From Balamuthia mandrillaris (taxonomy: Eukaryota), in the NCBI GenBank assembly GCA_031835245.2, contig JAVKOQ020000100.1:1-64000 (forward strand): DNA of 64,000 nucleotides, in the 5' to 3' direction. Under the pieces are notes generated by a model. It made no database searches. It was given only the letters and a program-made list of their open reading frames with translations, and was not told the DNA's origin. The position numbers were made by a program, and so were the translations under genes. This document shows positions 3,840-55,664 of the stretch, piece by piece (positions within the stretch are counted from its first letter, which is position 1; each line of letters begins with the position of its first letter).

Positions 3840-3890
<51 letters not shown>

Positions 3891-11175: not shown

Positions 11176-11195
11176 TGACGTCATTTCCCGCCAAA
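11176..11195 (+). promoter_or_regulatory. CRE-like palindrome next to an E2F-like site upstream of GINS4
   Basis: TGACGTCA immediately followed by TTTCCCGCCAAA, about 70 bp upstream of the ATG. Confidence 0.55.
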
Positions 11196-11267
11196 CATGA
11201 CCCCCAAACCAAAGTAAACAGGAAGCCACCGACAAACACACGCGTGTGCAGATACGTATCCAGCGCA

Positions 11268-28700: not shown

Positions 28701-28768
28701 TGTCCGCCGAGGAACAAACCATCTTCAGAGACCTCGCCGCAAGCATTCAACAATCCGAACAAAAGTAA
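23718..28768 (+). CDS. IPO7: Importin-7/8 family karyopherin (Nmd5/SAD2-like); multi-exon
   Basis: IBN_N start (RNAAEKQLE; LSAAVNFKN), FPEGWPEL, WKLKKW, WQEDPAE, REKDGAL, VFPELESPYPFMRARACW, PLDNYISR and an acidic C-terminal loop. Confidence 0.88.
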
Positions 28769-28854
28769 AAACACAAACCTTTTTATATTTTTCTGCAACA
28801 AACAACAACATAAACAAAACGGTTTTTAAATGTTTTTGTGTTTCTTTTTTTTTT

Positions 28855-29008
28855 TTACTTGGAAGGAGGAGGGGTGAGGATTTCCTTGTCCCCTCCGCAC
28901 GTTTGAACTTCCATTCTCGGATAGTAGGCCACCACGTTGATGCACATCTTTGGCGGTGTGTTATCCGTGAGAAATAAAGAAATATAAAAATAACATAAAA
29001 TACTAAAA

Positions 29009-29043
<35 letters not shown>

Positions 29044-35248: not shown

Positions 35249-35554
35249 GGAAGAAGAGGAGTGGAATGAATGAGCAAGCAACAGCATTCTCAAAGTTGGA
35301 TAGTATCTTATTTTGAGGATGTTTTTTTTCTTTTGGCATTTTGTAAAAAAACAAAAAACAAAAAACATAACTTCATCGAACTGAAAAGCCCATGAGCTTC
35401 CAAGGCTGAGGTAGTAATGGGCCGGTCGAGCGTCTTTCACCAGACGACTCGCACAGATAACTTCCGACGGAACTTTGGCAGTTCATTACTGTGGTTCATT
35501 AAGAAATACAGAAAGAATGGTTCGTATAAAGAATATACATTTCAAGTGAATAAC

Positions 35555-38023
35555 TTAAGAGCGGAACACATTGCTGGGCTTTGGCGGGATAGGTGGGGCG
35601 CTGGCCTTTGGAGTGACGGCGGAAGGCGTGGTTCGTGGGGATACTGCCGGGGCACCAGCCCTTGCAGGAACTGCAGGAGGAGCAGCTCTTGGAGAAACGG
35701 GTGAAGGACCGGCAGTTGAAGACACAGCCGATGGAGAGGCCCTTGGAGACGCTGGGCCGGCCTTTGGAGGAACTGCCGGGGGAGCCCTAGGGGAGACTGG
35801 AGGAGCGCCAGTCTTGGGCGGAACTGCTGGGGGAGCCCTAGGGGAGACTGGAGGAGCGCCAGTCTTTGGAGGAACTGCTGGAGGAGCCCTTGCAGAAACT
35901 GACGGCGCAGCGCCAGTCTTTGGAGGAACTGCAGGAAGAGACTTTGGAGAAAGTGGGCCTGCCCTCGAAGAACCCGCCGGGAGCTTCTTTGGAGTAACTT
36001 CTGGAGCAGGCGTCTTTGGAGGGATTGTTGGAGCAGACCTTGGGGAAACAGGTAGAGCACCAGTCTTCGGAGGAACGGCTGGAGGAACAGTTGCAGCTCT
36101 GTTCAAACCGTCTTCAATTTCAATGCTCCTGGGGCTCATCTGTTTCGTTTCCATTGGTGTCGTCTTCGCAAAGTTGGTATCGAACTGGGCTCTTATGGCT
36201 AACTTCTGTCGTCTTCTCAACAGGAACAAACCAACGGCAAAGAGGATCATCGTTACTAGAGTAAGCACCGCAAAAAGCGTTCCAAAGAAGAGTCCAGCTA
36301 CCACACCCCCAGGTACACCCTCTCCATCACCGTCATCTTTAACACCGCCTAAACGAGTGCTAACGCGAGAGGCAACCATGGAGGCTGTGTTGCAATACTC
36401 GTTGTACGTGATCCGCTGGTCGCCGTTCTTGTCCAACCTTGCAAAGATCTCCTCCAGGTGACCCTCTCTTCGGATCCAATGCTTCATGAGCTCCATCCAA
36501 CGAAGCTTCCCGATGGTGCCTCCTTGTTTGGGGTTGGCATACTTCTCCCAGTCTCCACAGAAACGCACCTCAATGCTCTCCGCTTGATTTCTCTCCAACG
36601 AGGTGAGGAAAGGGTTGATGTCGGTGGTGGTGTTGGTTTTGGCTCCAGTGGGGTCCAGCGGATCGTAGCTCCATGATGGACAGCTGTCGCAATAGGTTGC
36701 GGGCTTGGACGTGCTCATACAGGCCCTACGAGCGGAACACCAGCCACATCCGTTAGTTTCCTCGCATTCTTTGAAGGTTTCCAGCCGACTGCATTCATCC
36801 ACTATAACATTATTTCAGTTTCGGGTGTTAGCTGGGAAAGAAGCAGAAAGCAAAGCCCGTGAGGGAAAGGATAACAGAGAGCAAACTAACCAACGCCAAT
36901 GGTGATACAGGAGAGTTCGAAAGTGTCGTGGTTCAATGGAGTTTCCAGATCAATCACCGGACAGAAAGAGATGCCAGGGAGGCTCCAAATAATCTTCTGC
37001 AGGCGGAAGCAAAGCTCATGGGGGAAAATAAGCCCGTGCAGTATAGAGGCGCACAAGTTGATACTGTGTTCCTCAAAGTCGAACTTCAGCTTCAACGTCA
37101 CCTTTCCCAGCTTCCATTCTTGTTCATATTCTTTGTTGCAGGAGAGATATTCTTTGTGGATAGATATCAGGAGTTAGTACCGATATAGCTGAGAAGAGAG
37201 GATGGAGAATGAGGCAGGAAACACAATGAAAAGGAACGGTAAGTAGCTTACCAGCCATCCCGATGGTAACGTTGAAGATGGGCTCCTTGCCAAGTCCCAT
37301 GAACAAATTCAAAGTCTGAGAACAACAGGCATGTTAAAGGCCTACTGGAAAAATGAACAGAGGAAACATCACAACAGAGCCCGAACCTTTTCACATGAGA
37401 GCAGAGCCGCGGACACGCAGAGAGTGCTGTCCGGTGAAAGCATGTAGTTGAAAAGCAATTTGTTCGAGTTTGGCGCCGCCCCCAAGATATCTATCACGCC
37501 AGTCGGCCTGGGAAAGAGAATGTTCTCAATGGAGAGAGGCACCACCAGGTCCCCTATGAACTGTCCCACTGGGCCAAGTTTGCTGACGGGAACGGTCACC
37601 TCGAAGGAAGGAACGTTTTCTAGTAGGTCGTTGAGGGCCACCTGGACCTTCGTCAAGTCCACCCACTTTAACAACATCTTCGTGTGTTGCGATAAAGAAA
37701 AGGGAATACAAGCTTTGTGTTGTGTTCAAAGAAAGAGGGAGGTCAAAAGGGCAAAAATAGAGCGGCAGGCCAGGAAAGTTACCTTTGCACTCCCGACGTT
37801 CGTTCACCTTTGGGTTTGTGCAGGTCCAGGACGGAGAGGAGCTCCCGGCGGGTCCCCCTATAGTGAAAGTAGTGTTCATTGGGTTGCCTGCCCTCGTGCT
37901 CAACCCCCGAGAAGCCTCTCGAGCCGTTGCATCCCCTAGGGACACCAACAGCAACAATAGCAAAACGAGATATATCGAGCGAAGTCGGCCGAAGGCGGCC
38001 GTGTTCCGTTGGCGCTCCTGCAT
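35555..38023 (-). CDS. Pair 1 gene A: type I membrane protein (SP, Cys-rich DUF4773-like, PSI-like, EF-hand, TM, Pro-rich tail)
   Basis: 5 exons. Signal peptide; ACIPFSLSQHT exon; ISFCP...LSCITIG; CGWC PSI-like; EF loop DKNGDQRITYNE; TM VVAGLFFGTLFAVLTLVTMILFAVGLFLL followed by RRR; PAVPPK/VSPR repeats. Confidence 0.8.
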
Positions 38024-38338
38024 CACTTCGCTTCCGCCGGGCCAACCGATTTTTTGTGGAATGTTCCCAGAGAGCGGGCAAAAAGGCTTAGGAGGAGAGC
38101 AGCTGCGCGTTCAAGTCAAAGCGGAGGGGCCTCTGACGGTTGGGCGGTGGTTATAAACGCCCGAATAATGTCCTTATAAAGGGGCCTTCAAAGGCGCGCT
38201 GGCCTTGAAAAGGAAAGGCTGCCGTCTCTTGAGGCCGGCCGCCTGCCCTGGAACACCACCGCCGCTTTCTTTTTCTTACCGGTTCGTGTGCCCTCTTCGC
38301 CCGAAGCGCAACAACTCCGTTGGAAGAGGGAGCGGAAG

Positions 38339-40393
38339 ATGGGACGTTACCTCAGGCTCGGGTGGCATGCTCTCATCCTGTTGGCTTTGGCGTGGTCGGC
38401 GGCTGCGCAGCTTAGGCTCAGGGCGGAGGGGGACGCGCAGGAGTATGAGATTGGAAGCGAGGGGGATGGGTGGAAGTGGTTCGAGATGAGAAACTCCTCC
38501 TCTTTTAGCCAAAGGGAGAACCAACAGCGTGCAGCTGGATTCTCCGGTAGATGTTTCCGGGACACAAACGAGTATGGCAACTTCATCTATCGATGTAGCG
38601 GTATTGTATAGCGGTTTCGGTTTAAAATGTTTGTATGCTTTTGCTGGCTCACATGTTTGGCGTTGGTTACAGCATGCTTTGACCCTATGGGCGCCATATT
38701 TCACCTCGGAAAGTTTGCTGGTATTATTCTCGCTCGTTTGTTCTATTTTCCTCTGTCATTTTTTAGTTCTTACGCTTCTTTCATTTTCTCCTTTGCTTCT
38801 ACCACTTCCTCTTCCTCTCCCTCTTTTGCTTCTACCCCTTCACTCCTCCTCCTCCGCCACTCCGATAACGTAAACAATCCGCGTAGAGACATTCGGTATC
38901 AACGTGGATGTCTCCAAGTTGGGAGGGATCTTTACCGCCTCTGTGCCCGTTCCCCACATCTGCGTGGATGTGTGCGAGGGCAACCCCCATATCGGTCATC
39001 GTCGCGAGGACGAGGAGCCGCTCCCTGAGGGCCCTCAGGACGAAGAAGAAGCAGATGGTGAAGAAGCCGTTGAGGTCCAACGCTTCTTTGACGACATTGG
39101 GGACTGGGTGACCGATGGCGCGGACTTCGTGGCAGACGTGGCCGACGAGGTGATTGACACGTTCTGTGACCTGGGGGAAATCTGCACGCCGAGTAGGGTC
39201 AGCCTGGAGCTTGCTCTGACCATGCTTCTGAGTGGAGGTCCAACTGGCTTGATCGCTGGAAATCTGAAGAAGGCAGCAGTACGTTTTTCTTTCCGTTGCT
39301 AACGTCCTGCTCCCTCCACCAGCATTATTATTCACCGGCATTGCAGCTTAAACAAGCCACAGGAAACCCAGACGCTGCAGTAGCCCCATTTCCAGGGGCT
39401 CCTGAACTGTTTGGAGAGGTGTGCCTTACGCTTGATATTCCGTTGTGTGAGTTTGTACGTATGATGGGCGGAACACCCACAAATATCCCATCCTTTTCCG
39501 AGTTACTTATAGCAAGCGGCATCCGTGTTGTCTGTGACAACAACAGGACATCCGAGCTCAGGTCACCTACGCTGGCCTTGCGATACTAGGTGCTGCATTC
39601 GAAGACTGGGGACCTGGAGAGATAATGGATAGCTTAGGTACGAAGAGCTGCTTGTTTGTTGAAACTAATTCATTACCTCCTCTCATTCTTTCTCTCTCTC
39701 TCGCTCTCCGTGAAAAAAGATGCGTTAAGGGAGGCTACATGCAGAAGGAGAGCAATCAACAACTCTCAACAAAACTTCCAAGCAGTTACAAATACTGGCA
39801 CTTACCGCAGCTGCCGAGTCATTGATGTTCCAATGCTCAAGGGCAAGAGTGTTTGCATCGAACTGCGTGAGCTGGTCATCTCCGCTCAAGGGTTCCAGGC
39901 CTGTCTGGCCGTTGAAATTGGTACAAGAGTAGACCTAGGATGTCTTCAAGTAGGAGATGGTACACTCTCTCTTTCGCTCTTTAACTTTCTGCGGGTTTGT
40001 TTAACCAAACGGAACAAAAAAGTGGATGAATGCAGTCAAAACGATTGCAACACATGCCTGAAAAACGAAAAGTGTGGCTGGTGCCCTGTTACCAAGCTCT
40101 GCATGCCCCGACTGATGAGCGTGGTGAATCCGTGCAACCAATGCCCCATTCCCGTCAAGACCGAAAACCCAGCCCTAATATGTGGGGGGTTGAAACAGAA
40201 CTACGATCAATGTGTTTCAAGCTTTAGGAAAGCTGATATCGACAGAGACTTTCTGGTCACGAAGGAGGAGTTTCTCTTCGGGCCTGGAAAGTGGTTATTA
40301 GAGGGCGACATCACTGAAGCGTACGACTATCTGGATGGGGACGGTGATGGTACTCTACAGATGGAAGAGTTTTGTCTTTATTCAGCAAACTGA
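38339..40393 (+). CDS. Pair 1 gene B: secreted protein (SP, Cys-rich DUF4773-like with acidic amphipathic loop, PSI-like, 2 EF-hands)
   Basis: MGRYLRLGWHALILLALAWSAAA signal; GFSGRC; RFFDDIGDW; VCIELRELVISAQGFQACL...DLGCL; CGWCP; EF loops DIDRDFLVTKEE and DGDGDGTLQMEE; no TM. Confidence 0.8.
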
Positions 40394-40567
40394 TGCTCTT
40401 TTGTCGTTATGTACATCAAAATAACACATGAAAAGGAACAGGAGCAGAATTAAGCAAAAGGATAGAAGAAAGAACGAAGCAGAAGCAGAAGAAGAAGAAG
40501 AAGAAGAAGGAGAAGAAGATGATGATGATGATGAAGAAGATCAAGATGAAGAAGAACAATTTACAAG

Positions 40568-42669
40568 CTAAAGTAAAAATGGAGGCAAGACTTTAACAGC
40601 GCCAACCTTCCAAGGGCCGCCAGGATCCGCTTCTCCTGTAACCGAAACATCCGTCTCTTCTCCTTCTTCAGGAGTACCGTCCGTCGCTTTGGTTGCCTCT
40701 GTCCTATTCTTTAAGTTCACATGGTTGCTGGGTTTCTCCTTATTTGTCTTGCTTCTGTCTTTTGCTTTGGGAACTGAGATGACCATCGCGCTCAACCTGC
40801 TCTTCATCTCAACTTTCCTTCTGCTCCTAGTCGCCATATAAACCACAAATGCAACCACTCCACAAGCCAAAACACATGCTCCGATGGACCCTATAATGAT
40901 TCCTATCATCACACCGTCCTCCAAATCATCATCTCCTTCGCTTCCTTCCAGCAAACCTCCATAACGGTAGCTCACTTCCGCTGCTATCAACGAAGCTGTC
41001 GTGCAATACTCTGTGTAGGAGATCTCGCTGTCCTCATTTCGGTCCAGGCGGTAGAAAGCATTCTCCAGGTTTTCCGGTGTGGGAATCCATATGTTCATAA
41101 GGTTCACCCATCCATCCTGGTCGATTGTTCCTCGTTCTGTGTTGGTGTACTTGCTCCAGTCCCCACAAAACCGAACTTCAATGCTGTCTGCTTGGTTGCG
41201 GTCCGTCTTCCGAAGCTCATGCAAGAAGGAAATTGTATGTCGATCATTGCTACTTGGTGTTACTTCCTCCGCTTCTCTTTGTTCCGGCATTGCTCGATAA
41301 TCCCAAGAAGCACATCCTTCGCAAGGAGAAGGAGGAAGAGATGAACTCATGCAAGTTCTGGATGAAGCGCACCATCCGCAACCTGCTTTTTGGTTGCAAG
41401 CCAACTCTGTCCTCACTGCTCCGCATTCGCTCACTTGGTCGTGTTAAGCCATCACAAAGGTGATGACGAACGTAGCCATGAGAGTGAGCCGTTGAGAATA
41501 TACCGGGCCAAGACTCGGTAAGAAGCAAGAAGGACAACACACTCACAATAGAAGTACACTGGAAAGATGAACGCACCTGAACCCAGGCTGAAACAGGAGT
41601 ACGCTAGAGTGTCACGATTGAAGGGGGTTTTCAAGTTTATCGTAGGGCAGAGGGATATGCCACTGGCCGTCCAAACGACATCGTCAAACTTGAAGCAAAG
41701 ATCATGAGGAAGGACGCGTCCTTTCAAGATTTGTGTGCAAAAAGAGAGGGACCGTTCCATGTAATCCATCTCCAACCGTCCAGAGTCGAGTATCTGTTTC
41801 TTGTTTGCACACCCGATGAATGCTTTTTCATTCGTTAGCTACAAAACATACCAACAATGAAAGAGAGAGAGAGAGAGAGACCTCCGAGGTGAAAGGTTAT
41901 GTCGGCGAAGGGTTCGTTTCCATTTGTTAACGTCAGTTGCACAGTCTGGACAGATATCCGGAATATAAGTGTTCATTTGGTGAAGACCATAAGACGTGGA
42001 AAAAGAACTGAAGGTAAAACCAAAGGAGTAGAAAATGCAATTCGTACCTCCTCGCAGGGACGGAGCCGCAGTGAGGCACAAATGACCCCATCGTTTGATA
42101 ACATGTGATGATACAACAAAGTGCGATCATCGTTCAAGTTCATGAGGAGGTGGTCCACCTTCGCCTTCTGGTCAAATGTGATCTCGTCGATGGTGACAGG
42201 AACATCCAAGTCCCCTGTAAGCGCCCCCACAGAACCCAGCTTACTGGCCGGAACGGTAATATTGAAAGACGAGAGACCCATTAAAAAGGTACCCAAATCC
42301 ACTTGGAGCTCCGAAAAGTCCACCAGCTCGAACAGGTGTTTTGTTCGCTGAGTTAGCCTGTATGGAAAACAAACTGTTGCGTATAGTGCTTTTATTGTCA
42401 GCTGCAAGATGTTTCCCAGTCCAGATGAGGGAAATGAATGACCAACCTTTGCACTCCAAAAAATCTTGTTGGGAGTCGGAACACTCCCACGCCGAAGGTA
42501 CGTTCTGTTGGCTTGCAAACGTAAAACTCATTGCATTACTGCTACCGGGTGAGTCCCTGCGCGGTTCTCCGCAACTGCCTTCCACAAGCACCAACGCCGC
42601 TAGCATCACCACAAATAGATCAAACCGCCGGAAAGCTCCTCCTCTTCCTTTCCCTCTCAACCGTTTCAT
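40568..42669 (-). CDS. Pair 2 gene A: type I membrane paralog
   Basis: Same exon order as A1 (WECS..FLECK | VCFPYRLT | TVQLTLTNG | ISLCP..YSCFSLG | CGWC, FCGDW, DRNEDSEISYTE, TM) with a short basic tail. Confidence 0.8.
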
Positions 42670-42892
42670 CCTCCTCTTCTTCCAACTCCACACTTTTGCT
42701 TCAGTTTCTCGAAAGGGCACAATTGTGTCGACAGTTGTTTACTATTTATGGAAAATCGCACACACTTTTTGATTTATCATTGGTTGATGATCATCTTCCG
42801 ATCGTATCGCTGCATCGAAAAGTGCCGAAGAAAGAAGAAAGCAAAGAAGAAGAGGCGTCTTCATCTTCCGCACGTAGTCGGGGGGGAAAACC

Positions 42893-43181
42893 ATGAAATG
42901 GGGCGATGGCGTGGTGTGCATGTTGTTGTTTGTTGTTGTCCTGGGGAACGTTTGCGGTCATGAAGCGGTGCTGATGAAGGAAGGGTTTGTTGTCAGCAGG
43001 CGTGGGGAGGACTGGAAGTGGTCGGAACGAAAGGAGGCGGTGGGCAGCTTTCCTGGAGAGTGTAGACGTTATACCGATGCGAGAGGACACAAGGGCTACA
43101 AGTGCCAAGGTGCAATCCCAAACAAGAAAATGGAAAACATAACTCTATGATTTTAACTCGTTCTGACTCTCTCTCCCTCAC

Positions 43182-43223
<42 letters not shown>

Positions 43224-45023
43224 CTCTCTCTCTCCCCTCTCTTCTTCCTTTCCCTCATTCGCTTCTTTCTGTAACAGCTTGTTTCGATCCTGCAAACTCT
43301 GTATTTCAAGTTGGCCGTTTTGTTGGTGCAGATTCTTCGCTGTTATTTTAGCCTTTTTACCTGCAACAAACATTCCTCTTTCCTCAAAACAAAAAAAAAA
43401 AAAACAGAGGAACTGAAAGTGGACGTGGACTTGACGAAGTTGGAAGGTCTTGTTAGAGCTTCCGTGCCACTTCCTAAGATCTGCGTGGACCCTTGCAAAC
43501 AGAGCCGCAGGTCCAATGAGACAGAGCGTCAAGCGAATTGTTTGTCCGTTTGTACGCCGGAGCGGGTGGATCTTGACCTTTCTTTGGAAAACCTTCTCGG
43601 AGGGTTTGGCGTCGTCACAAGGAGTCTAAAAGAAACAGCGGTTATATTCTCCTCTTTCTTCTCCTTCTTCTTGTTCTTTTTTTTCTTGTTCTTGTTCTTC
43701 TTCTTGTTCTTCTTGTTCTTGTTCTTGTTCTTGTTCTTGTTCTTGTTCTTGTTCTTGTTCTTGTTCTTGTTCTTGTTCTTGTTCTTGTTCTTGTTCTTGT
43801 TCTTGTTCTTGTTCTTGTTCTTGTTCTTCTTCTTCTTCTTCTTCTTCTTCTTCTTCTTCTTCTTCTTCTTGTTCTTCTTCTTTTTCTTCTTCTTCTTCTT
43901 TTTCTTCTTCTTCTTCTTCTTCTTCTATCCTCTGTACTCTCTTCTTGCTGACTTATGTCTAGCTGAAAGAGTTGGGATGGGTGGATCCCCTATTTCCGGG
44001 CGCAGCGGAGATGTTTGGGGGAGTGTGCCTCACACTAACTATTCCGTTATGTTCATACGTCAGTTCTCCCATCATTTCAGCCTCTACTATCGCTTATCAC
44101 AACTTCACTTGAATTTATAGGACATGCGGATGGAGCTAACATATGCTGGTGTAACGTTACACGCGACCTCTGTGAATGTCTTACAGACAAGTATTACCAA
44201 ATCTCCTGGTTCGTGTAGCCTGTGTCTTGATCTGCTTCTTCATTTTACATCTTCTAGAACTAAGGACCTGCTTGTTCCTTTTTCCTCCATTCTTCCAAAG
44301 CAGATGCTATTGGAGAAGCTAGTTGCAAACACCGACACGCTCCTTTGGTCTCGAGCGATATAGACGTAGACGCGCATACTAAATCCTTCCAAGCGTGCTC
44401 TGCCTTCAGCATGCCATTGCTCACTGGGTTGCAGGTCTGCTTAAACGTCAGCGACCTCGTAATAACTGGGACCGGTTTGCAAGGATGTGTTGCGATACAA
44501 ACAGATGACAGAACCCAAGTCGGCTGTTTGAGTGTTGGACAAGGTTCTCTTTCTTCTGCTCTGTGTCCTCCTCTTCTTCTGTATCTTCTCTTTTTTCATC
44601 TCTCAGCTAATAGCTCTATTCAACTGACAACGATAAGTGGAGGAATGCAACCCGAAAAACTGTTCTGTATGCATGCTTGACCCAAGTTGCGGCTGGTGTC
44701 CATCCATCGGCCTGTGCATGCCTCACACTCCCTCTCTCTTGCAACCGTGTGCTGAATGTCCTGATGGAATACTACAAACTGAACACGCAGAGTTCGTTTG
44801 TGAAGGCAACCCAGAACAGTATACCAACTGCGTTAAAACGTTTCGAGAACTGGACAACGACAAACGGGACTTTCTCATCTCTCGGATAGAGTTTCGTTTT
44901 GGACCTGGTAAGTTCTTGCACAAAGAGGACGCCGTACAAGTGTTTGACTCTTTGGACGAGAATGGAAACGGTGTGTTGGAGCTGAGCGAGTTATGTGCTT
45001 ACACTCCATTTATTGAAGTATAA
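42893..45023 (+). CDS. Pair 2 gene B: secreted paralog lacking the acidic loop
   Basis: Splices in frame across 7 exons (SFPGEC; ACFDP; ICVDPC...VCTPER; GGVCLTLTIPLC; VCLNVSDLVITGTGLQGC; CGWCP; DENGNGVLELSE). Confidence 0.8.
43670..43925. repeat. (TTCTTG)n/(TTC)n microsatellite in a pair 2 gene B intron
   Basis: Visible tandem repeat. Confidence 0.95.
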
Positions 45024-45119
45024 AACGTGTTCCTGCTTCCAAAGACTGTCAGTATTTACAACAAGTTTTTCTGCTCCTCCTCTTCGTTTTACAACGACGA
45101 ACGTTGCTGCGAGCTCGAG

Positions 45120-47102
45120 CTACAGCCGCCTGTCTGATGACCCAATGTTATCATCGTTCTTGATGAACGAGGACGCTACGAAGGTATCATTCTTTATGAT
45201 ACTCCCCGGCGCGGTCACCTGGATCTTTAACGGGTTGTTCCTGGGGGAAGTTATCTCCACGGTCATTCCAGCGTTGGGTTGTCCTATCGCATTCAGCTCC
45301 AAGTGGAGGTGGTGGTTCTTGTTTTTGCCTCTCGGCGCTGTCGCCGTGGAAACCGGGGTGGAAGAGGTGTTGCTGTACTGGAGCTCCTCCACATCCTCCG
45401 CGGAACGAATGGGGGCCAAGGAGTTGGTCACATGCAGCCTGGCCTGCAAGACGATCGTCCGGCGATGACGGTAAGAGAAGTAAGCCGCCACTGCCACGCC
45501 AACGCTGAGAATGGAACAACCTACAATCACGGACACGACGATGCCCACCACTTCTCCATCGCTCAACTCGTGAGGTTCTGCCTCCAACAAACCGCCAAAG
45601 CGGCTCCTAACCTGAGCCGCTGCTTGGGAGCTCATCGAACAGTACTCGTTGTAGGAAACCTGGTTGTCATTGTTCTTGTCCAACCGAGCAAAGACGTTCT
45701 CTGCGTGGCCCGGCTTGCGAAGCCACACGCCGGCGATCTTCATGAAACGTTCTTTGCTGACCTTTCCTGTATTCTTGTCGGCCCAACGAAACCAGTCGCC
45801 ACAAAAGTTTACCTCGATCTCTTCCGCTTTCACCTGGCCTTGCTCTCTGGCCAGCTGCTCCAAGTAAGGGATCCTGCTTCGTTGGCTGCTTCTTCTTTTT
45901 CTCTCCGCTCTGGCTGCAGGGGTCTCGGCCGGTCCGATGTAGTCCTCAGCTTCCCAGCTGGGACAGCCGTCGCAGTGACCTTCAGGTGTGGAACGGCTGG
46001 CACAGTGCCGGTAGGTGCTGCACCAGCCGCAACTTTCCTCGGACTCGCAGTCTTTGAAATTGTCCAGCCGGTTGCACTCGTCCACTTTGAATGTGTGAGG
46101 CAACAGAAAATGAGGAACACGAAGAAGAGAAGGAGATGGAGGAAGGAGAAAGAAACAGGTGAGTGCAGGTGACAGAAGAGAACGACAGCTGGTGGGGAAC
46201 GTTGTACCAACTCCCATGGTGGTGCTCGGGAACTGGAGATGCTCATCCGTAAACGGGGTGCTCAAGTCTAAAGCGGGGATGAAAGAGATGCCCCTGTACG
46301 TCCAAATGACCTCTTCCAGTAAAAAGCAGAGGTTGTGCGGCAGGATGAGTCCCTTCATGATCTGCGCACAGACGGAGATCTGTCGGTTTCCATAGTCAAA
46401 GGTCAGTTTTATATTTACTTTTCCAACATTCCACTCGAACTCTTGTTCGCTGTGGCAGCCGAGGTAATCTTGGCAGAGAAGAGCAACTGGTTAGGCCATA
46501 AACAAAGAAAGAAGAAGAAGAAAGAACAACAAACAAACAAACAAACAAACAAACAAACAAACAAACAAACAAACAAACAAACAAACAAACAAACAAACAA
46601 ACAAACAAACAAACAAACACACACACACAAACAAACAAACAAACACACAAACAAACACACACACAAACAAACAAACAAACAAACAAACAAACAAACAAAC
46701 AAACAAACAAACAAACAACACACAAACAAACAAACAAACAAACAAACAAACAAACAAACAAACAAACAAACAAACAAACAAACAAACAAACAAACAAACA
46801 AACAAACAAACAAACACACAAACAAACAAACAAACAAACAAACAAACAAACAAACAAACAAACAAACACACAAACAAACAAACAAACAAACAAACAAACA
46901 AACACACAAACAAACAAACAAACAAACACACAAACACACAAACACACAAACACAGCTTGTTACGACAAAAACAAATAAGAACAACAGAGACTTACTTCCA
47001 GCAGAAAGGGTGAGGTTGTAGATAGGAGATCCGCCGTGAGTCAGCGCGAGTTCAAACTCCTGCGCAGACGATGAGCTCAGGGAAACCACTAGGCAGAGGC
47101 AC

Positions 47103-47145
<43 letters not shown>

Positions 47146-47730
47146 ACATTGTCACAGGACCTTCTTGTGATAGACAAACAAAATGTGCCGTCGTCGGAGA
47201 GCATGTACTGGTAGAGCAGATTCCGCGGCACTTGCTTGTTAGTGACTGCGCTCTGGAAGTCGAACGTGGTGTCAGGGAAAAGGAGGGACTTGATGTCCAG
47301 GGGAATGTCGATGTCGCCTATGAACTCTCCGATAGGACCGAGATCGCTCATGGGGATGGTGATGGTCGTGGAGGGGAGGGAACCGAGCAAGGAACTGAGG
47401 TCCACGTCCACTCCGGACAGGTCCACAAGCTCAAAGAGTTTCTCGGTGTGATAGGACAGAGAGAACGGTATGCAAACTGTCGTGTGTGAGCGCTGTGTGA
47501 GAAAAAATAAAAACACACAACAGGAGGCATGCAGTACCTCCGCATTGCATGGTCTCAGACTGCGGATGCGAGCAGGTCCATTCTCCCTCATCCGCCGACC
47601 CCAAATGGAAAGTGGTATCTGTCTTGGGGCTGTCCCCGCGCGAACACACCGCCGACAGGCAGATGCAAAGCAAAACCGCAAGCAGCCAGCAACGGCCGCC
47701 CGGTGAACAAGCAGGTTGTTGCCCCACCAT
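45120..47730 (-). CDS. Pair 3 gene A: type I membrane paralog
   Basis: Signal peptide, WTCSHP, VCIPFSLSYHT, CGWC, FCGDW, DKNNDNQVSYNE, TM VVGIVVSVIVG...AYF followed by RHRR. Confidence 0.8.
46525..46952. repeat. (AAAC)n microsatellite with AC interruptions in a pair 3 gene A intron
   Basis: Roughly 430 bp of tetramer repeat. Confidence 0.95.
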
Positions 47731-48106
47731 TCTCTTCCCCTTTCCCCTCTAGCCCTGGAACGCGGGTGTGTGTGGGTCCAACCTTTAAAAAAAAAAATAC
47801 GGAAAGCGTTGGTTCTCAGTTTCGGCCGAGAAGCACGAGCGGCGGCCGGTCCGGAGGCGAACGAACACTGCTGCTCTATCCGGAAATACGCCTATCGAGC
47901 CAGTTATTCCGCAACAGGCAGAAAGAACGTGGTCCAGGGGAGGGGTTGGTCTGGAAAAAGGCAAGAAAACGGTTCGCAGTGGAACTAAAAGGCCCTCCCC
48001 TGGACCGAAGAACGAAAAAACAAGAACCCCAAAGAGGTAAAGAGGAACTATTAAAAGGCCCCTTCTGGGCAGTTCCACGAAAAGAGGTAAAGATGAACTA
48101 TTGATC

Positions 48107-48149
<43 letters not shown>

Positions 48150-48182
48150 CGTGTCTGGAAACGGAACACAACAGAGACCAAA

Positions 48183-50303
48183 ATGGAGGGAGCAAGGTGG
48201 ACGGTGCTGCTGGTGATAATGATGGCCCTATTGGCTGTAGCGGCAGCCCGCGGTGCTCGCTACAAGAACCAAACGGACGAATATGTGGTCACCAGAAGTG
48301 GAGACATGTGGAAGTGGTTGGAAAGAATGGAAAAGATAAACCAGAGGGACTTTTTGGGTTTCTCAGGGGACTGTACCCATGAAAAGGATGAGGACGGCGC
48401 CTCAATATTCTATTGTGAAGGTTATTTCTTGTCGTTTCAGCAACTCATCGTTTCTTTATTAACAAATCTTTGGTCGTTCCAGCTTGCTTTGGTGCTAAAG
48501 AAGCCGTGTTTCAACTGAAGAGTTTCGTCGGTACTGATCTTTTTCCCTGCTCTCCAATCGTCCAAGTCTCTTCTATGGCTACTCTGTTTGTCTCGCTCTC
48601 TCTTCTTGCTATGCACTCTCCATGTGTATTTGTTTCTTCTGATTTCGTTCTGGGGTACCTCCGACCTCTACTCCTCCTGTGCTCCGGTAGATGATCTGCT
48701 CGTTGAGTTTGACGCGTCAAACCTGGACAGCATCCTCTCGGCCTCCGTCCCCATTCCGCACATCTGCATCGGCCCCTGTGACTTTGACGTCGGCGGGCTA
48801 GGCTTCCGCTTCTTCGATGACATTGGCGATTTCTTTGACGATGTTGGGGACGCCATAGCGGACGTTGTAGATGATGCTATCGACATCATCTGCGACCTTC
48901 CCGATATCTGCACGCCGGATAGGTTGAACATGGAACTGGCGCTGTCGCTGTTTATGGGACCCACCACCTTTGTTACGAGCAATATCAAAGATGCATTTGT
49001 ACGGGTTTTGCAGTCCATATGTGTTGGCTTATCTCGTTTCGTTTGTGACGACCTTCTCTGCCATCTATCCCAGCCCTTACCTGATCGCTTCTTTGCTTTC
49101 CTTCGGTGGTGCTCCATCAGGTTGAGGAAGTTTTGGATGGCCTACCGGACTGGGCAGCGGCCGCAAATGATCCTCCTTTCCCTGGCAATGCTGAACTGTT
49201 GGGAGATGTTTGCCTGACCCTCACCGTGCCTCTTTGCGAATTAGTACGTTGGGGCCATCCAAACTCCTTGCTTCCATGCTAACGTACATTTATGAACCGG
49301 CCTTCCTTTATACCAACTGTTGCGTTTGGCATTGCTATGGCGGAACAGGACTTTACTGTTGAGCTGACGTACGCGGATATGGTCCTGAGTTCCTTCACGG
49401 CTTCAGACTGGATTGGAGAGGCCCTCTATGATCTGATAGGTATTTTTTTGCTTATCATTTTGGTTGCAACATTTATTGTTCTCTGCAGCTTCTGTATGCC
49501 CCTTTCTCTCTCCTCTCTCTCTCTCTCTCTCCTTCTCTTTCCTTCATGCTCTAAACCTACGCAAACATAACACAAGGTGAATTCACGGAGGCCCAATGTC
49601 GAAGGAAGAGCTACCGAAACAAGCAAGAGAGGGAGTTTGATGTGGATCCTGCAACGGGAACGGTGAGGGTATGTACCCATGTTGAACTTCCTCTCTTGAA
49701 GGATCAGCAGATTTGCATTGTTCTCTCCGACGTTATTATCTCCGGCAGCGGCGTGCATGCGTGTCTGGAACTTGTTAAGGGTTTTTCCATGGACCTGGGC
49801 TGCTTGGACCTTGGAGAAGGTACGGCTGGCACCCAGATATTTCTTCATCCTCACACTTTCTTCCCTTCTTGCGTTGCTTTCCTTTCTTCACCGCATTAAC
49901 ACACTAATTGACCTTCAACTTGATAGTGTCCAGTTGCAGTGAGAAAAACTGCGAGGAATGCATGGAGGACAGCAACTGTGGCTGGTGTCCTCCCTTAAAC
50001 CTCTGCATGTCCAGTGCCAAATCGTTGACCCATCCATGCTCAGCTTGCCCAGGAGGGGTTTTCACGGAGGACAAAGAACTGGTTTGCGGTGGCAATAGCG
50101 AGACTTATGAGGAATGCGTTGCCACCTTCCGAAGCACAGACTTCAGGAAGGACTTTGAAGTCTCAAAAGAGGAGTTTCGGCTGGGACCTGGAAAGTGGAT
50201 GCTTTGGGGAGACGTGGAGGAAGCCTTTGACTTTTTAGATGACAACGAGGATGGCATTTTGGAGTTGGATGAGTTTTGTTTCTTTTCGGCTGAGGAGAAG
50301 TAG
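48183..50303 (+). CDS. Pair 3 gene B: secreted paralog
   Basis: Signal peptide, FLGFSGDC, RFFDDIGDFF, GDVCLTLTVPLC, ICIVLSDVIISGSGVHACL..DLGCL, CGWCP, GPGKW, DDNEDGILELDE. Confidence 0.8.
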
Positions 50304-50515
50304 GGCCTGCAACGATCGTCTTTTCTGAAAGTTGTTTTTCATCGTATATAAAGTTTTTTCTGTTCTTGCTTTTGCCAGTTTCAGAGAGGGAGAGAAACCG
50401 AGCAAGAGAGAGTGGAGAGAGAGAAAGTTAGAGGCAGAGGATAAATCACATTGATATCATGGGAGCAACTGCTTGTGGATATGTACACACAGAACGTATG
50501 GAAAAAAAAGGAAGA

Positions 50516-51776
50516 CTAGATCACAACTGCCCTGGGTACTCTTTCGATATCGTCTTGACGTTTCGGCAAAGTAGAAGCTCCTGTAACGAAGGGGGTGTTG
50601 GAGCGGATACTATCAGGAGCGTCCACCTTAAGCCGAAGGGGTTTCCGACGTGGAGAGGTAACTCTCAGAGCTAAACCCATATACCCCCCTCCTTCTCGCT
50701 CCTCGTCGCTTGAAAGTTGCTCCAGAACCAGCTTCGATTCTTTCGTAATATCTTTCAATCGGTTTTCATGGCCCTGGGTACTCTCGTCGTTGCTGAGGAA
50801 TACTCCTGCTCGTGTCACGAAGGGGTTGTTGGAGCTGATTCCATCTGGCGCCTCAACCCGAAGCTCAAGCGGATTTCGACGGGCAGAGGAGACTCTCGCA
50901 GACAAGCCCTTAGTCCCTCCTGTTTCATCTTGTTGCTGTTTCTTCAGGTTCAATTTCGGTACTCTCCTCGCCTCTGCATCCTCCCCTTGTGCTTGATCCT
51001 GGTGTAAAGACTGATCTTCGTTGTTGCCTCGTAAGTTGTAGGTCAAGTCTCGTATGCGCATTGTCGCTTGCAACGAGATGGCCCGTCGGTGACGCCATCC
51101 AAAGTATCCTCCCACCGCCATCAAAACAACCAACAAAGTTGCAGCCAGCAAAGTGCTTACCACAATCCCTGCCACCACCTTGTCCTCCGAGTCGTCTTCA
51201 TCGTCGTCCTCCTTCAGTCCTCCGTATTCCAAATCGACATGCTTGGCTCCCAGCGCAGAGACAGAACAGAACTCGATGTATGTAATTAGGCCATCTCCGT
51301 TCTTGTCCAACTCATTCCACGCCTTCTCAAGCTGTCCCGGTTTCCGCAACCACCTTTGCATGCTCTTCATCCATGTCTCTTTGCTGAGAGTGGCGGTGTC
51401 TGTGTCCGAGTACCTGTGCCAGTCACCACAAAAGACTTCTTCAATCCGATCTGCTTGTTGTTTATTCTTCTTTCTCAAGCTGTCGATGAAAGGAATAGAA
51501 TTGAGACCAGGTGTTGAGGTGCCTTCCTGCCTTCTTTCGGTTCCATCCTCTTGGTTCTCGTAGTTCCAAGAGGGACACTGCTCGCATGCCGCAGAGGGTT
51601 TGTTGGTGGTGCTCTGACAGTACCTTCTAGCGGGACACCATCCACAGCCCTCCGTTTCTTCACATTCTTTGAAGGCTCTGATGCGATTGCAATCATCAAC
51701 TATGTTACGTTATATGTTCCCTTTAGTTTTTTATATGTATGAAACGAGTGACCAGGAAAGGAGCGGGAAGATATGC

Positions 51777-51822
<46 letters not shown>

Positions 51823-53004
51823 GGCAAAACAATTGAAAGAATAAGTCTTAAGTTACCCTTGCCAAATGTGATGCAAGAAAGCTCTATCTTATCATCATTG
51901 AACGGAGTCGTGAGATGGAAGTTTGGACAAAAGGAAAAGCCTTCCATCGTCCAAACGATATCGGCAAGGTTGAAGCATAGGTCGTGAGGAAGGACGACGC
52001 CCTCTAGGATCTGAATGCATATAGAGAAGGTGCGCTCCTCAAAGTTGAATTTCAGTTTTAAACTGAGAGGTCCCCGCGCAACGGACGTTTCGATTTCATT
52101 CTTACAGCGAGTAAACGCTGTTCCAGTAGAGCGGGAGGCAGGAGAGACAGAAGAAAGTGGTGTGAATAGGACGAGGTGAAGGTGGAAGGTAGAAATAAAG
52201 GAAGAAGGATATAATAAGAGATGAGCGCAAACCTCCTAACTGCAACGGAAGACTGTAGATGATATCCTCTCCTTGTGTCAACTTAAGCTCAACAGTCTTT
52301 TCAAAGAGACAATCATCAGTACAATGTACATTTTGGAAGATCTCTCTCTCTCTCTCTGCTCCTCCTCCTCCTTCTCCTCCTCCTCCTCCTCCTCCTCCTC
52401 CTCTTTCAACACGTACGTTGTCGCAAACAGAACGAGCAATTACAGCACACAGCTCACCATTAGAAGAGAGCATCTTATGGAGGAACAAGTTTTTGTTTCC
52501 GCCTCTGTACGCTAGGATGGAATTAAGCGGTGTTGAGGGGAACATTGCAGTCCTGAGCACGTCTTCCACCGGGACCGAGATGCCGATGTCACCGATAAAC
52601 TCTCCGATAGGACCTAGTTCACCGATGGGTATGGTAAAGTCCAAGTCCGGTAAGTCAGGGAGAAAACTATCTAACGCAATCTGCAGGCTGGAGATGTCTA
52701 TCCAGTCGAATAACTTGTCCGTTTCTTTCGTCATTGCAAAAGGAAGGCAAACTGCAACAACACACTGTTCAGAAAAAAAGAAGATGCAAAGCATTGACAC
52801 AAAAAACCAGGTACCTTTACATTCCATGAAAGAGGAGGTAGGGTTAAAGCAAGACCATCCGCCTTTGGGAGGAAATATTGAGAAACTTGCAAGGTCTTCT
52901 CTTTTTTGTAGCCGCAGGGCCGAGACGCTGGTTAAAAATAACAAGACTCCCACAGCAACCAGCCGGAACATAGCAGCGCTCTTGGGCGGTCGTGACCGTG
53001 CCAT
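50516..53004 (-). CDS. Pair 4 gene A: type I membrane paralog with duplicated tail motif (start could be the ATG at 52971)
   Basis: Signal peptide, WSCFNP..MECK, VCLPFAMT, FSFCP..LSCITFG, CGWC, FCGDW, DKNGDGLITYIE, TM followed by RHRR. Confidence 0.8.
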
Positions 53005-53316
53005 CGAAGTGGTATGTCCCGCTCTTTCTGGTTTCTGCAAGGGAGCACGGCGAAAAAAGCCCCCCGAGTAATCTTGCACCTTGCAGAGCTACGCGCTCTC
53101 TTCCTCCTGGCGTTTCGAGCTCGAGCAAGGAGACGAAAAGGAAGCCAGACCGATCCCAGTTTGCCTCCTTGGGCAACGTAAGTTCGAGAAAATTTGCTTA
53201 ATAAGGATAGGATAGTGTCGTTTCGAGCAACTGTTACGCCTGTTCTTTTAGACTTGGTGGGGTAGATATATCTTTTTCCTGTTTCTTCCTTCCCACACAG
53301 GAGGAAAGAAGAAGAG

Positions 53317-55664
53317 ATGACACGCCTTTTGACAGTGGTTGGTTTTTTGTTTTGGCTGGCTATGGCGGTCAGCGCGGAGCGATGGTACTCTAGGAGTTAC
53401 AACACAACAAGCGACGATTATGTCGTTACTGCCAAAGGTGCCGGTTGGACCTGGTTTCATCACAAGGAACAGTTAACTCGGAATGAGTTTTTAGGCTTTT
53501 CCGGGGAATGTGCTAAAGAGGAGGATGAAGACGGAAACATAATTTTCACCTGTTCTGGTTGGTAATCATCGACTGATCGGCAAACCTATCTGCTTCTTTT
53601 CTCTTGCTTTCTGCCTCCGTTAAGTCTTTGAATACACCCACTTCATGAAACAGGTTGTTTCAATCCGCACAACGCCATCTTCCAAATCCCAAGATTTCTA
53701 GGTAAAAGTTTTTGGTCCTTGTCTCCATTTTATCGTTCATTTACATCCTTTTCATCCTGTTCTTCCTCTTCCTCTTCCTCTTCCTCTTCCTCTTCCTCTT
53801 CCTCTTCCTCTTCCTCTTCCTCTTCCTCTTCCTCTTCCTCTTCCTCTTCCTCTTCCTCTTCCTCTTCCTCTTCCTCTTCCTCTTCCTCTTCCTCTTCCTC
53901 TTCCTCTTCCTCTTCCTCTTCCTCTTCCTCTTCCTCTTCCTCTTCCTCTTCCTCTTCCTTTTATACTCTGTCTGACTTACAATATCTGTTACCATTCGCT
54001 GCTTATAGAGAGTCTTGGGGTGGACCTCGATCTGTCCAAGTTAACGGGATCCATTACCTCAAAGCTTCCCATTCCACAGATCTGCATTGATCCATGCGAC
54101 TTTGACTTTGATATCTCATTCAGAGGAGAGCAGGAACAAGTGAGGACAGAGGAGGGGCGGCAAAACAAGGAAAGATTTTGGGATGACATTGCTGACTGGG
54201 TCGACGACGCTGTCGATACTGTGGTGGATGAGGTCACAGAGCCTATATGCGATTTGTTGGATGTTTGCACCCCCGACTTTGTGGACATGAGCCTGAGCTT
54301 GTTTGACCTTTTTGGAGGGTTGGGCATTGTTCCAGCAGACCTGAAGGAGGTGATGGTTTGTCCTTTTGGCGGCTGCGAATGTTTTCTTTCATCCCTTCCA
54401 CTCGTATTGATCGCTTCTTTCCTATCCCCTCCAAATGAACTTGTGCCCCATTGTGACGGGAAGCGGGATCAATTCGGAGACTGGATGCCGCGGGATGCTG
54501 CCCCTCCCTTTGAAGGTGCCTTCGAGCTGCTCGGCGATGTATGTCTTATCGTAAAAGTCCCTCTTTGTCAGTTTGTACGTCAACCTCTCCATTACAACGG
54601 TTTAGACTGTCATACAAACAGACACTGCTTTCTCTTTCTTTTTAAAAAGGACGTTCGAGTGGACTTGACGATGGGGGGTATTACTTTGTTATCCGTCGGT
54701 TTGGAAAATACTCGACTAGGCGACTTTATGGATAAACTCAGTAACATCTTTCTCTGTCTTCTGTTGAAAATATCTTTTCCTTCTCACAAACCAAACACAC
54801 AAACAAAAGATCTGGCCAGAGAGCTGAAGTGCAGAGCAGACCAAGTGAACGAGCAGGCTAAAAACGGTGAGTTAACCAGCGATCGTGATAGCGGCACGTT
54901 GGAGTTTTGTAACAGCATTGGGATGCCACTGTTTAGCTCAGCCGGGGCATGCGTGAAGCTAAACGATATTGTTTTGACCGGCAAAGGTTTTCAAGCTTGC
55001 ATGAAAGTGGATTTTGGTGAAGGCATTGACCTTGGTTGTCTTCGTGTTGGAGACTGTAATGCTTCTTCTCCTCTTCTTTCTGCTTCTCCTTCTCCTTCTC
55101 CTTCTCCTTCTCCTTCTCCTTCTCCTTCTCCTTCTCCTTCTCCTTCTCCTTCTCCTTCTCCTTCTCCTTCTCCTTCTCCTTCTCCTTCTCCTTCTCTTTT
55201 TTCTTCATCTCCAGCCTTTCCATTCGTTCATAGCACTCGTTCTGAAGTTGTCCTGCAACTTGCTTCGATACTCAGTAACGGACTGCTCCGCTTTTGACTG
55301 CGAAAAGTGCATGCAACAAAGTTCCTGTGGGTGGTGTCCTTCCACTAGCTCCTGCGTCACCTCCGACCTCATGGGACCGGAAAAATGCTCCGAGTGCCCC
55401 GGAGGAGCCTACACCGAGAACGCGGCTCTGGTGTGCGGCGGAAACTCAGAAACGTACGAGGAATGTTTGGCCTCGTTTAGAACGGTAGACTCGTTGGAGC
55501 GGGACTACCTCGTTTCCTTCGAAGAGTTCTTCTTGGGACCTGGAAAGTGGTTGCGTTATGCCACGGCGGAGGAGGCTTTCGCTTTCTTGGATGAAGACAA
55601 CGATGGCATTTTGGCGTTCGAAGAGTTTTGTGCTTTCTCTGGTGAAGACGAAACAGGGGAGTGA
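53317..55664 (+). CDS. Pair 4 gene B: secreted paralog
   Basis: Signal peptide, FLGFSGEC, RFWDDIADW, GDVCLIVKVPLC, ACVKLNDIVLTGKGFQACM..DLGCL, CGWCP, GPGKW, DEDNDGILAFEE. Confidence 0.8.
53761..53958. repeat. (TCTTCC)n microsatellite in a pair 4 gene B intron
   Basis: Visible perfect hexamer repeat. Confidence 0.95.
55085..55195. repeat. (TCTCCT)n microsatellite in a pair 4 gene B intron
   Basis: Visible hexamer repeat; the GT-AG intron removes it from the CDS. Confidence 0.9.

What the first reader, a model, noticed from the sequence alone, without database searches (positions are those of the whole stretch)
35555..55664. Four tandem head-to-head cassettes, each pairing a membrane receptor-like gene with a secreted partner: candidate undescribed self/non-self recognition or toxin-immunity system
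Seen in sequence: the order is <-A1|B1-> <-A2|B2-> <-A3|B3-> <-A4|B4->. Start codons within a pair are only about 220-450 bp apart, implying a shared bidirectional promoter. Every A is SP + Cys-rich beta region + PSI-like (CGWC) + EF-hand + TM + cytoplasmic tail. Every B has the same ectodomain plan with no TM. Intron positions are conserved among the A genes and among the B genes. The frames I spliced are intact, yet the paralogs are highly diverged outside the Cys, Gly and EF residues, so the duplicated unit is the pair itself. Established knowledge: Dictyostelium tgrB1/tgrC1 allorecognition genes are an adjacent divergent matched pair, but they are Ig-like and unrelated to these; linked receptor/ligand pairs also define plant S-loci. 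Inference: each A binds its own B, as ligand-receptor, obligate heterodimer or toxin-protector, in a Ca2+-dependent way.
Basis: partly seen in the sequence, partly recalled or inferred. Interest (0 to 1): 0.92.

Follow-up and report, generated by a model that had tools for sequence, protein, structure and literature searches.

The report
Four paired amoeba surface-receptor subunit genes
The brain-infecting amoeba Balamuthia carries four back-to-back gene pairs, each coding a membrane-anchored protein and a secreted sister protein of one apparently undescribed family, which likely join through a disulfide bond into a two-part cell-surface receptor; a role in self-recognition is possible but untested.

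Summary
The layout is real: eight intact spliced genes, four head-to-head A/B pairs, start codons 223-452 bp apart. Five models equal NCBI Balamuthia mandrillaris proteins letter for letter, and a second contig repeats the order.

A and B are ancient paralogs (profile probability 99%, three identical intron positions). Both have a signal peptide, a Cys-rich DUF4773-like beta region, a PSI-like module and an EF-hand pair; only A has a transmembrane helix and tail.

All 10 Balamuthia members have an odd ectodomain Cys count; the PSI-like module has one Cys more than RON's. Best reading (0.45): each pair makes a disulfide-linked A-B surface heterodimer on the same cell.

Against over-reading the layout: unrelated neighbours also sit head-to-head 278-519 bp apart, a fifth A and B are not adjacent, and A ectodomains are more conserved than their tails between the two copies. 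A2 is the exception and keeps allorecognition open (0.15). Toxin-immunity has little support.

Undescribed family, known kind of arrangement.

The parts
35555..38023 (-). A1: signal peptide, beta region, PSI-like module, EF pair, TM 473-491, Pro-rich tail with 8 PxxPx[KR] motifs; 5 exons, 712 aa
   Evidence: identical to P0002 (QOT17_011134)
38024..38338 (.). A1-B1 spacer, 315 bp (possible bidirectional promoter, not shown)
38339..40393 (+). B1: secreted paralog, 7 exons, 503 aa, two canonical-looking EF loops, no TM
   Evidence: identical to P0010 (QOT17_011135)
39084..39158 (+). B1 acidic amphipathic helix directly after an Arg, inside a loop flanked by two Cys on each side (also in B3 and B4; absent in B2 and B5)
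   Evidence: hydrophobic moment 0.55, p=0.001 against 2000 shuffles, net charge -9
36680..36691 (-). A1 second CxxC of the PSI-like module (C335/C338); one of the two is the inferred spare Cys
   Evidence: RON PSI pairing from PMC3405059
40133..40144 (+). B1 equivalent CxxC (C418/C421); one of the two is the inferred spare Cys
40568..42669 (-). A2: 5 exons, 574 aa, TM 465-483, short tail; the fastest-changing beta region between the two copies
42893..45023 (+). B2: secreted, 7 exons, 435 aa, lacks the amphipathic insert
   Evidence: identical to P0004 (QOT17_011137)
45120..47730 (-). A3: 5 exons, 603 aa, TM 461-479; has lost one Cys pair of the beta region
   Evidence: identical to P0021 (QOT17_011138); model
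48183..50303 (+). B3: secreted, 7 exons, 475 aa; amphipathic insert at 48810-48884
   Evidence: identical to P0009 (KAL6064070.1); model
50516..53004 (-). A4: 5 exons, 677 aa, TM 458-476, tail with a motif shared with A3
   Evidence: P0003 (QOT17_011140) is its C-terminal 608 aa
53317..55664 (+). B4: secreted, 7 exons, 490 aa; amphipathic insert at 54176-54250
   Evidence: no database record retrieved

Best explanation
The eight genes are paralogs of one secretory-pathway family, split into a membrane-anchored type (A) and an anchorless type (B), and each head-to-head pair likely encodes the two subunits of one disulfide-linked, Ca2+-binding cell-surface receptor or adhesin assembled on the same cell. 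Shown: homology, architecture, duplication of the pair as a unit, an odd Cys count in every Balamuthia member. Inferred: an ancestral disulfide-dimer gene duplicated in inverted orientation, one copy lost its anchor, and the roughly 5-kb pair was then copied in tandem; co-transcription from the short spacer gives matched amounts; the spare Cys of the PSI-like CxxC links A to B in the ER; the two curved beta sheets together form the ligand site (a lipid or other hydrophobic ligand is hinted at, weakly); the EF pairs stiffen the complex in extracellular Ca2+; the different A tails (SH3-type Pro-rich motifs in A1, other motifs in A2-A4) couple each dimer to a different output inside the cell. The ligand would be environmental, prey or substrate, not necessarily a kin cue.
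For: A-B homology: hhalign probability 99.1%, E 7e-19, 233 columns; 3 of 4 A introns share column and phase with B introns, and the fourth lies 3 columns away in the same phase. A and B each form one clade (100/99 and 100/100). Ectodomain Cys counts are odd in 10 of 10 Balamuthia members: A 19, 19, 17, 19, 19; B 25, 25, 25, 25, 23. Cys change in pairs (16 rows): PSI C2 and the last PSI Cys are both absent in 5 of 5 A and both present in 5 of 5 B and 6 of 6 environmental rows, matching the C533-C567 bond of RON PSI (PMC3405059, passages); one beta-region pair is lost together in A3, P0012 and P0016. Against RON's 8-Cys pattern one extra Cys remains in all 16 rows. Gene counts known are 5 A and 5 B. 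Order is kept on a second contig (KAL6058793-99, 6 of 7 members seen). Precedents: paralogous semaphorins form disulfide-linked heterodimers (PMC6695400, passages); COL4A paralog pairs lie head-to-head and co-assemble (PMC12141075, passages).
Against: An odd Cys count fits homodimers, a buried free thiol or a redox CxxC (the MET PSI has isomerase activity; PMC9604360, abstract) as well as an A-B bond; it is one inherited trait, not ten observations. P0014, the only environmental member with an intact N-terminus, has an even count (20). The fifth A and B lie 16 locus tags apart, and two further B5 accessions and one A5 accession belong to other contigs. Short head-to-head gaps are background and the spacers share no 7-mer. 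A and B trees both prefer ((1,3),(2,4)), but the AU test rejects none of the three topologies. The models are low in confidence (pLDDT 56 and 62), and the FABP-like matches are weak (E about 8e-3, rmsd 6-12 A).
Confidence: 0.45

Rival explanations
1. A and B act separately, as membrane-bound and secreted homodimers (or monomers) of one family. The alternating layout is history: one inverted duplication followed by tandem copying of a 5-kb block in a compact genome.
For: Unrelated divergent pairs have gaps of 278-519 bp. No shared spacer motif. A5 and B5 persist without adjacency. The spare Cys is also present in the PSI region of the environmental members, so a disulfide dimer may predate the split and could have stayed homomeric.
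Against: All eight genes are intact at 34-44% paralog identity, and no cassette has lost a partner in the window or, for the six members seen, on the second contig. The A and B counts are equal.
Confidence: 0.27
2. Each B is a secreted cue that binds its own A on other cells, giving allele- or paralog-specific self/non-self recognition (kin discrimination, fusion or encystment control), in the manner of tgrB1/tgrC1.
For: [quoted passage not shown] Between the two copies the A2 beta region differs at 50 of 252 sites against 35 of 465 in A3+A4 (p=3e-6), while EF divergence is equal (4/70 vs 8/140); changes spare columns invariant in the other paralogs (1/39 vs 49/213, p=0.002; B2 0/41 vs 29/237, p=0.01). 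Pair 2 also has the longest branch in both trees.
Against: Pooled A ectodomains are more conserved than tails (p=0.002), and A1, A3 and A4 beta regions are 92-96% identical. The A2 result is one case picked from four after the fact, on two sequences, without DNA for dN/dS, and it is no faster than A2's own tail (p=0.76). A spare Cys in both chains suggests joining in the ER of one cell. A review of Balamuthia had no occurrence of 'fusion', 'aggregat' or 'sexual' (PMC8579774, word search only).
Confidence: 0.15
3. B is a secreted membrane-active effector, cut after the Arg in its Cys-closed loop to expose an acidic amphipathic helix, and A is its tether or protector.
For: B1, B3 and B4 carry an amphipathic helix (moment 0.55-0.63, p<=0.001, charge -9 to -10) directly after an Arg, in a loop flanked by Cys; B2 and B5 have basic pairs in the same loop.
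Against: 2 of 5 B lack the helix. No toxin, pore-former or enzyme domain appeared in Pfam, NCBIfam, PDB sequence or fold searches. A is a full-length paralog with varied signalling-type tails, unlike an immunity protein. Cleavage is not shown.
Confidence: 0.06

Closest known systems
Dictyostelium tgrB1/tgrC1 and the tgr family (PMC13648343, passages)
   Same: Amoebozoan surface proteins in duplicated head-to-head pairs of one gene family; some members are unpaired or lack a TM.
   Different: Tgr proteins are IPT/Ig-repeat proteins, both canonical partners are membrane-bound and bind between cells, with extreme polymorphism. Here no Ig/IPT hit was found, B has no anchor, and each chain has a spare Cys.
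Type IV collagen gene pairs COL4A1/2, 3/4, 5/6 (PMC12141075, passages)
   Same: Paralogous secreted chains in duplicated head-to-head pairs that co-assemble; the closest model for the genetic logic proposed here.
   Different: Unrelated proteins; the collagen pairs lie on three chromosomes; co-assembly is proven there and only inferred here.
PSI-domain receptors and ligands: RON/MET, plexins, semaphorins (PMC3405059, PMC6695400, passages)
   Same: A CGWC-centred Cys module whose covarying Cys fit the RON pairing; disulfide-linked homo- and heterodimers of paralogs occur in semaphorins.
   Different: No sema propeller or IPT domain; Pfam PSI scores (best 17.7 bits) are under the 23.1 cut-off; there is one extra Cys; the module is followed by an EF-hand pair.
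DUF4773 (PF15998)
   Same: 5 of 7 exons coding the end of the beta region hit the same C-terminal half of the model (E 0.01-0.08), P0017 hits at E 0.003, and the ESM Atlas lists a DUF4773 cluster at 0.78.
   Different: Best score 18.4 bits against a cut-off of 27; no DUF4773-type animal protein was among the 17 hits of the profile search; the function of DUF4773 is itself unknown.
Vibrio VtrA/VtrC co-component sensors (PMC9214523, abstract and passages)
   Same: Adjacent genes for a membrane signalling subunit and an extracytoplasmic partner that form an obligate heterodimer around a lipocalin-like barrel.
   Different: Bacterial, partners are not paralogs, output is a transcription factor; the barrel likeness here rests on weak FABP/CRABP matches only.

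Membership tests
Tgr allorecognition pair (TgrB1/TgrC1) | Head-to-head pair of related surface-protein genes | tested here: met
Tgr allorecognition pair (TgrB1/TgrC1) | IPT/Ig E-set repeat ectodomain | tested here: not met
   No TIG or Ig family at E<=0.1 in 15 full-length proteins or at E<=0.5 in 14 exon pieces; other domains occupy the chain
Tgr allorecognition pair (TgrB1/TgrC1) | Both partners membrane-anchored | tested here: not met
   0 of 5 B have a C-terminal hydrophobic helix
Tgr allorecognition pair (TgrB1/TgrC1) | Exceptional ectodomain polymorphism | tested here: inconclusive
   Two copies only, protein level: pooled ectodomain more conserved than tail, A2 beta region elevated; no flanking-gene background
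Tgr allorecognition pair (TgrB1/TgrC1) | Allele-specific binding between cells | not testable with these tools
   needs binding assays
DUF4773 (PF15998) | Score at or above Pfam gathering cut-off (27 bits) | tested here: not met
   best 16.8 bits and 18.4 bits
DUF4773 (PF15998) | Remote homology to the domain | tested here: inconclusive
   repeated weak hits on model positions 50-115; Atlas lead 0.78, not repeated with P0014
PSI domain (PF01437) | Pfam cut-off 23.1 bits and 8-Cys pattern | tested here: inconclusive
   best 17.7 bits; Cys covariation fits RON pairing, with one extra Cys
EF-hand pair | Helix-loop-helix pair with a canonical acidic loop | tested here: met
   B1 last exon 29.9 bits over 25.4; Z 10.4, rmsd 2.9, 71 aligned for B3; Z 8.8, rmsd 3.1, 79 aligned for A3; the first loop is degenerate in A
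Toxin-immunity pair | Recognisable toxin domain in the secreted partner | tested here: inconclusive
   none listed; the beta region was poorly modelled in B3
Toxin-immunity pair | Partner is an unrelated protective protein | tested here: not met
   A is a paralog of B
Head-to-head paralog pair encoding a hetero-oligomer (collagen IV type; works-like) | Products co-assemble | not tested
Head-to-head paralog pair encoding a hetero-oligomer (collagen IV type; works-like) | Co-expression from the shared spacer | not tested
   RNA runs did not cover the stretch

The most novel reading that the evidence does not exclude
A matched-pair self/non-self recognition system in a solitary amoeba, built independently of Dictyostelium Tgr from a DUF4773-like/PSI/EF-hand family, with cassette 2 as the fast-changing identity determinant and the cleavable amphipathic loop of B as a triggered membrane-contact element.
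Probability: 0.15. Interest if true: 0.9.

Novelty: new variant of a known kind. Interest (0 to 1): 0.58.

Why it matters
The surface proteins of Balamuthia, an amoeba whose brain infection kills over 90% of patients (PMC10471605, introduction), are hardly known at the molecular level; a review names only a galactose-binding protein and matrix binding (PMC8579774, passages). This locus offers a defined family of predicted surface heterodimers, with no animal, Acanthamoeba or Dictyostelium record among the search hits, which suits diagnostics and adhesion studies. It is also a clean natural case of a homomer turning into a heteromer of paralogs held in a duplicated cassette, and may give a first handle on DUF4773-like domains. 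If cassette 2 proves polymorphic and allele-specific, kin recognition would extend to a non-social amoeba.

Tried and rejected
Own-genome search: no genome is held, so copy number rests on protein databases. Expression: no RNA holder listed; laying 4 runs on 35300-43110 gave 0, 3 and 1 reads in three runs and 21 mostly short contig pieces in the fourth, one of them a 169-base exact match to B2 exon 1, which is no test; the second lay, with housekeeping genes as control, laid nothing. A3-B3 complex prediction: not available, so no verdict. Environmental loci: two metagenome scans found no confirmed relative (43 and 276 pattern matches, 0 confirmed), so linkage outside Balamuthia is unknown. Word-index homolog searches returned 1, 3 and 3 proteins; two were saturated at about 8000 candidates. 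Fold searches: no E<=0.001 match in PDB or BFVD; the wide searches were filled by EF hands, so the beta region was barely tested and no new fold is claimed; 2kw1 (Z 6.3, rmsd 3.2, 86 aligned) could not be identified. PDB sequences: only E 0.07 and 0.47 hits for the beta region, EF-hand proteins for the full profile. Internal duplication of the beta region: not supported (probability 1.9%). Shared spacer motif: only purine-rich 6-mers; no 7- or 8-mer in all four. Source names 'Ras association...' (P0001) and 'Multiple EGF like domains 8' (P0009) rejected as likely transfers from the Pro-rich tail and the CGWC module (inference; no such Pfam domains). P0020, a repeat protein at E 4e-4, was dropped from all counts; the fragment P0015 was left out of the Cys table and the tree. 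Giant-virus origin: Atlas leads of 0.85 and 0.80 lie in the chance range and BFVD gave nothing. Three look-ups of earlier findings were empty. Print searches Balamuthia+EF-hand+plexin and Balamuthia+QOT17 found 0 papers; DUF4773 found 3, seen as listings only; subscription journals are not covered.


Full report
OBSERVATION. All 40 introns are GT-AG. Start codons within a pair are 315, 223, 452 and 312 bp apart, and cassettes are 4.5-5.2 kb long. Database records name the organism: my A1, B1, B2, A3 and B3 equal NCBI Balamuthia mandrillaris proteins letter for letter, and A4 equals its record apart from the N-terminal 69 residues. These records are gene predictions too, so they back the models, not expression. 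Their accessions fall at KAL6064065-71 (6 of 7 seen), and a second contig of 125,132 bp holds KAL6058793-99 in the same order (6 of 7 seen). Whether that contig is an allele or a segmental copy is not settled. Balamuthia is an amoebozoan in Discosea. The flanks are ordinary: kinesin and a DOMON/copper monooxygenase on the left, a TPX2-like gene on the right.

A AND B ARE ONE FAMILY. Identity is 36-44% among A, 34-42% among B and 19-30% between them. Profile comparison of A with B gives probability 99.1%, E 7e-19. Three of four A introns sit at the same column and phase as B introns, and the fourth is three columns off in the same phase. In a 22-row tree A and B are each one clade (100/99, 100/100). 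So an inverted duplication made the pair, B lost (or never had) the anchor, and the pair was then copied as a block. The separate A and B trees both prefer ((1,3),(2,4)), but no topology is rejected, so congruence is not shown.

ANATOMY. Signal peptide; a Cys-rich beta region; a CGWC module; an EF-hand pair; in A only, a TM helix and a tail. The EF pair is firm; B has two acidic loops and A one. The CGWC module scores under the Pfam PSI cut-off (best 17.7 of 23.1 bits). The end of the beta region hits DUF4773 weakly but repeatedly: 5 of 7 such exons tested, E 0.01-0.08, 1 of 15 full-length proteins, and one of two Atlas searches as a lead. AlphaFold2 models are modest (B3 pLDDT 56, A3 62). In A3, residues 160-440 are mostly 65-88 and show an antiparallel meander of about nine strands; residues 72-158 are mostly under 50. 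Foldseek's best matches for A3 are fatty-acid and retinoic-acid binding proteins at E about 8e-3 and rmsd 6-12 A, a hint of a curved sheet and no more. B1, B3 and B4 carry an acidic amphipathic helix directly after an Arg inside a Cys-flanked loop; B2 and B5 lack it. A tails differ: A1 has eight PxxPx[KR] motifs (SH3-ligand type, recalled), A3 and A4 share a 44-residue motif, and A2 is short.

THE SPARE CYSTEINE. Ectodomain Cys counts are odd in all ten Balamuthia members. Across 16 rows Cys come and go in pairs. PSI C2 and the last PSI Cys are both missing in 5 of 5 A and both present in 5 of 5 B and 6 of 6 environmental rows, which is the C533-C567 bond of RON PSI (PMC3405059, passages). One beta-region pair is lost together in A3, P0012 and P0016. 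The EF pair of Cys is present together in 12 rows, absent together in 3 and half present in 1 (P0014). Measured against RON's four bonds, one Cys of the second CxxC is extra in every row. A conserved unpaired Cys in a secreted protein most simply makes an inter-chain bond (inference); semaphorin paralogs form such homo- and heterodimers (PMC6695400, passages). This does not tell A-B from A-A and B-B, it is a single inherited trait, a long-range intra-chain bond could move the free Cys elsewhere, and a redox role is possible (PMC9604360, abstract).

RANGE AND LINKAGE. A profile of the beta region against 1.84 billion representatives gave 17 hits: 9 Balamuthia, 7 family members of which the 5 looked up are unnamed Logan or JGI records on contigs of 1.0-1.4 kb, and 1 repeat protein that I dropped. 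Four of six environmental proteins scanned have a TM; two have none but may be cut short, and these two group weakly towards B (81/87). B4 was not among the hits, so counts may be incomplete. Balamuthia has a fifth A (no cytoplasmic tail; GPI anchor possible, inferred) and a fifth B. On a 54,618-bp contig they are 16 locus tags apart: linked, not paired. Short divergent gaps are ordinary in this window, 278, 504 and 519 bp for three unrelated pairs (start codons read from ORFs), and the four spacers share no 7-mer. The layout therefore shows block duplication. Only the retention of both partners in all four cassettes, and the equal counts, argue for functional coupling.

TEST OF THE RECOGNITION IDEA. 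Identities between the two copies are A1 95.6, B1 94.2, A2 81.8, B2 89.4, A3 90.0, A4 89.5, A5 98.1 and B5 94.1%; B3 and B4 could not be compared. Pooled A1-A4 ectodomain cores are more conserved than tails (1262/1380 vs 531/612, p=0.002), unlike tgrC1, whose polymorphism peaks in the 5' Ig domains (PMC13648343, passages). A2 is the exception: 50 of 252 beta-region sites differ against 35 of 465 in A3+A4 (p=3e-6), with equal EF divergence, and the changes avoid family-invariant columns (1/39 vs 49/213; B2 0/41 vs 29/237). That is a kept core with a fast-changing remainder. It fits diversifying selection or relaxed surface constraint, was picked after the fact, and lacks dN/dS and a flanking-gene background.

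MECHANISM AND RIVALS. Most likely (0.45) each cassette encodes a covalent A-B heterodimer made in one cell: A anchors and signals, B completes the ectodomain, Ca2+ stiffens it, and four versions give four specificities or outputs. It would work like the collagen IV pairs in its genetics (PMC12141075, passages) and loosely like VtrA/VtrC in its logic (PMC9214523, abstract and passages), without belonging to either. Rivals: independent homodimers with a historical layout (0.27), trans self/non-self recognition (0.15), effector plus protector (0.06). It is not a Tgr pair: the Ig/IPT and two-anchor features were tested and not met.

NOVELTY. No described family covers the architecture in Pfam or NCBIfam, and two print searches found nothing on it. 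Of PMC10471605 I read part 1 of 5 and a word search; of PMC8579774 a word search; of PMC8569187 only the supplement list. Unseen supplements of these papers could hold expression data for the genes. The family appears undescribed; the arrangement is of a known kind. Interest 0.58.

Noticed in passing
window 35598-36087 (A1 tail): 51-nt (17-aa) Pro-rich repeats; the second copy P0001 has one more unit than the window's A1, so repeat number varies.
   Followed up: partly
window 13238-19938 (+): Myosin-head exons followed by a long ORF and a DEP plus RhoGAP ORF on the same strand; possibly a myosin-RhoGAP fusion. Not checked whether it is one gene.
   Followed up: no
window about 28700-31332 (-): Secreted DOMON plus copper type II monooxygenase gene (dopamine beta-hydroxylase-like), head-to-head with a kinesin 519 bp away.
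   Followed up: no
introns of the cluster, e.g. acceptors before 39720, 40023, 41822, 54650, 54810: Many 3' splice sites are AAG ending an A-rich run, not a pyrimidine tract; several introns hold long microsatellites (43656-43924, 46525-46952, 53761-53959).
   Followed up: no
P0011/P0023 and P0013/P0024 (other contigs): Fifth A lacks a cytoplasmic tail and ends in a short hydrophobic stretch (GPI signal possible); fifth B has three accessions in the collection against two for fifth A.
   Followed up: partly
P0004 residues 25-312 and P0014 residues 20-255: Both Atlas searches put an unnamed 166-aa cluster labelled viral (commonest Nucleocytoviricota) and unnamed mollusc clusters on top (0.78-0.85), in the range of chance hits.
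   Followed up: partly
window 1712-12524: DNA polymerase family A exons (-), an ankyrin-like gene (-, motif recalled) and GINS SLD5 (+), the last two head-to-head 278 bp apart; NOL10 and an importin-beta-family gene likewise 504 bp apart near 23213-23718.
   Followed up: partly
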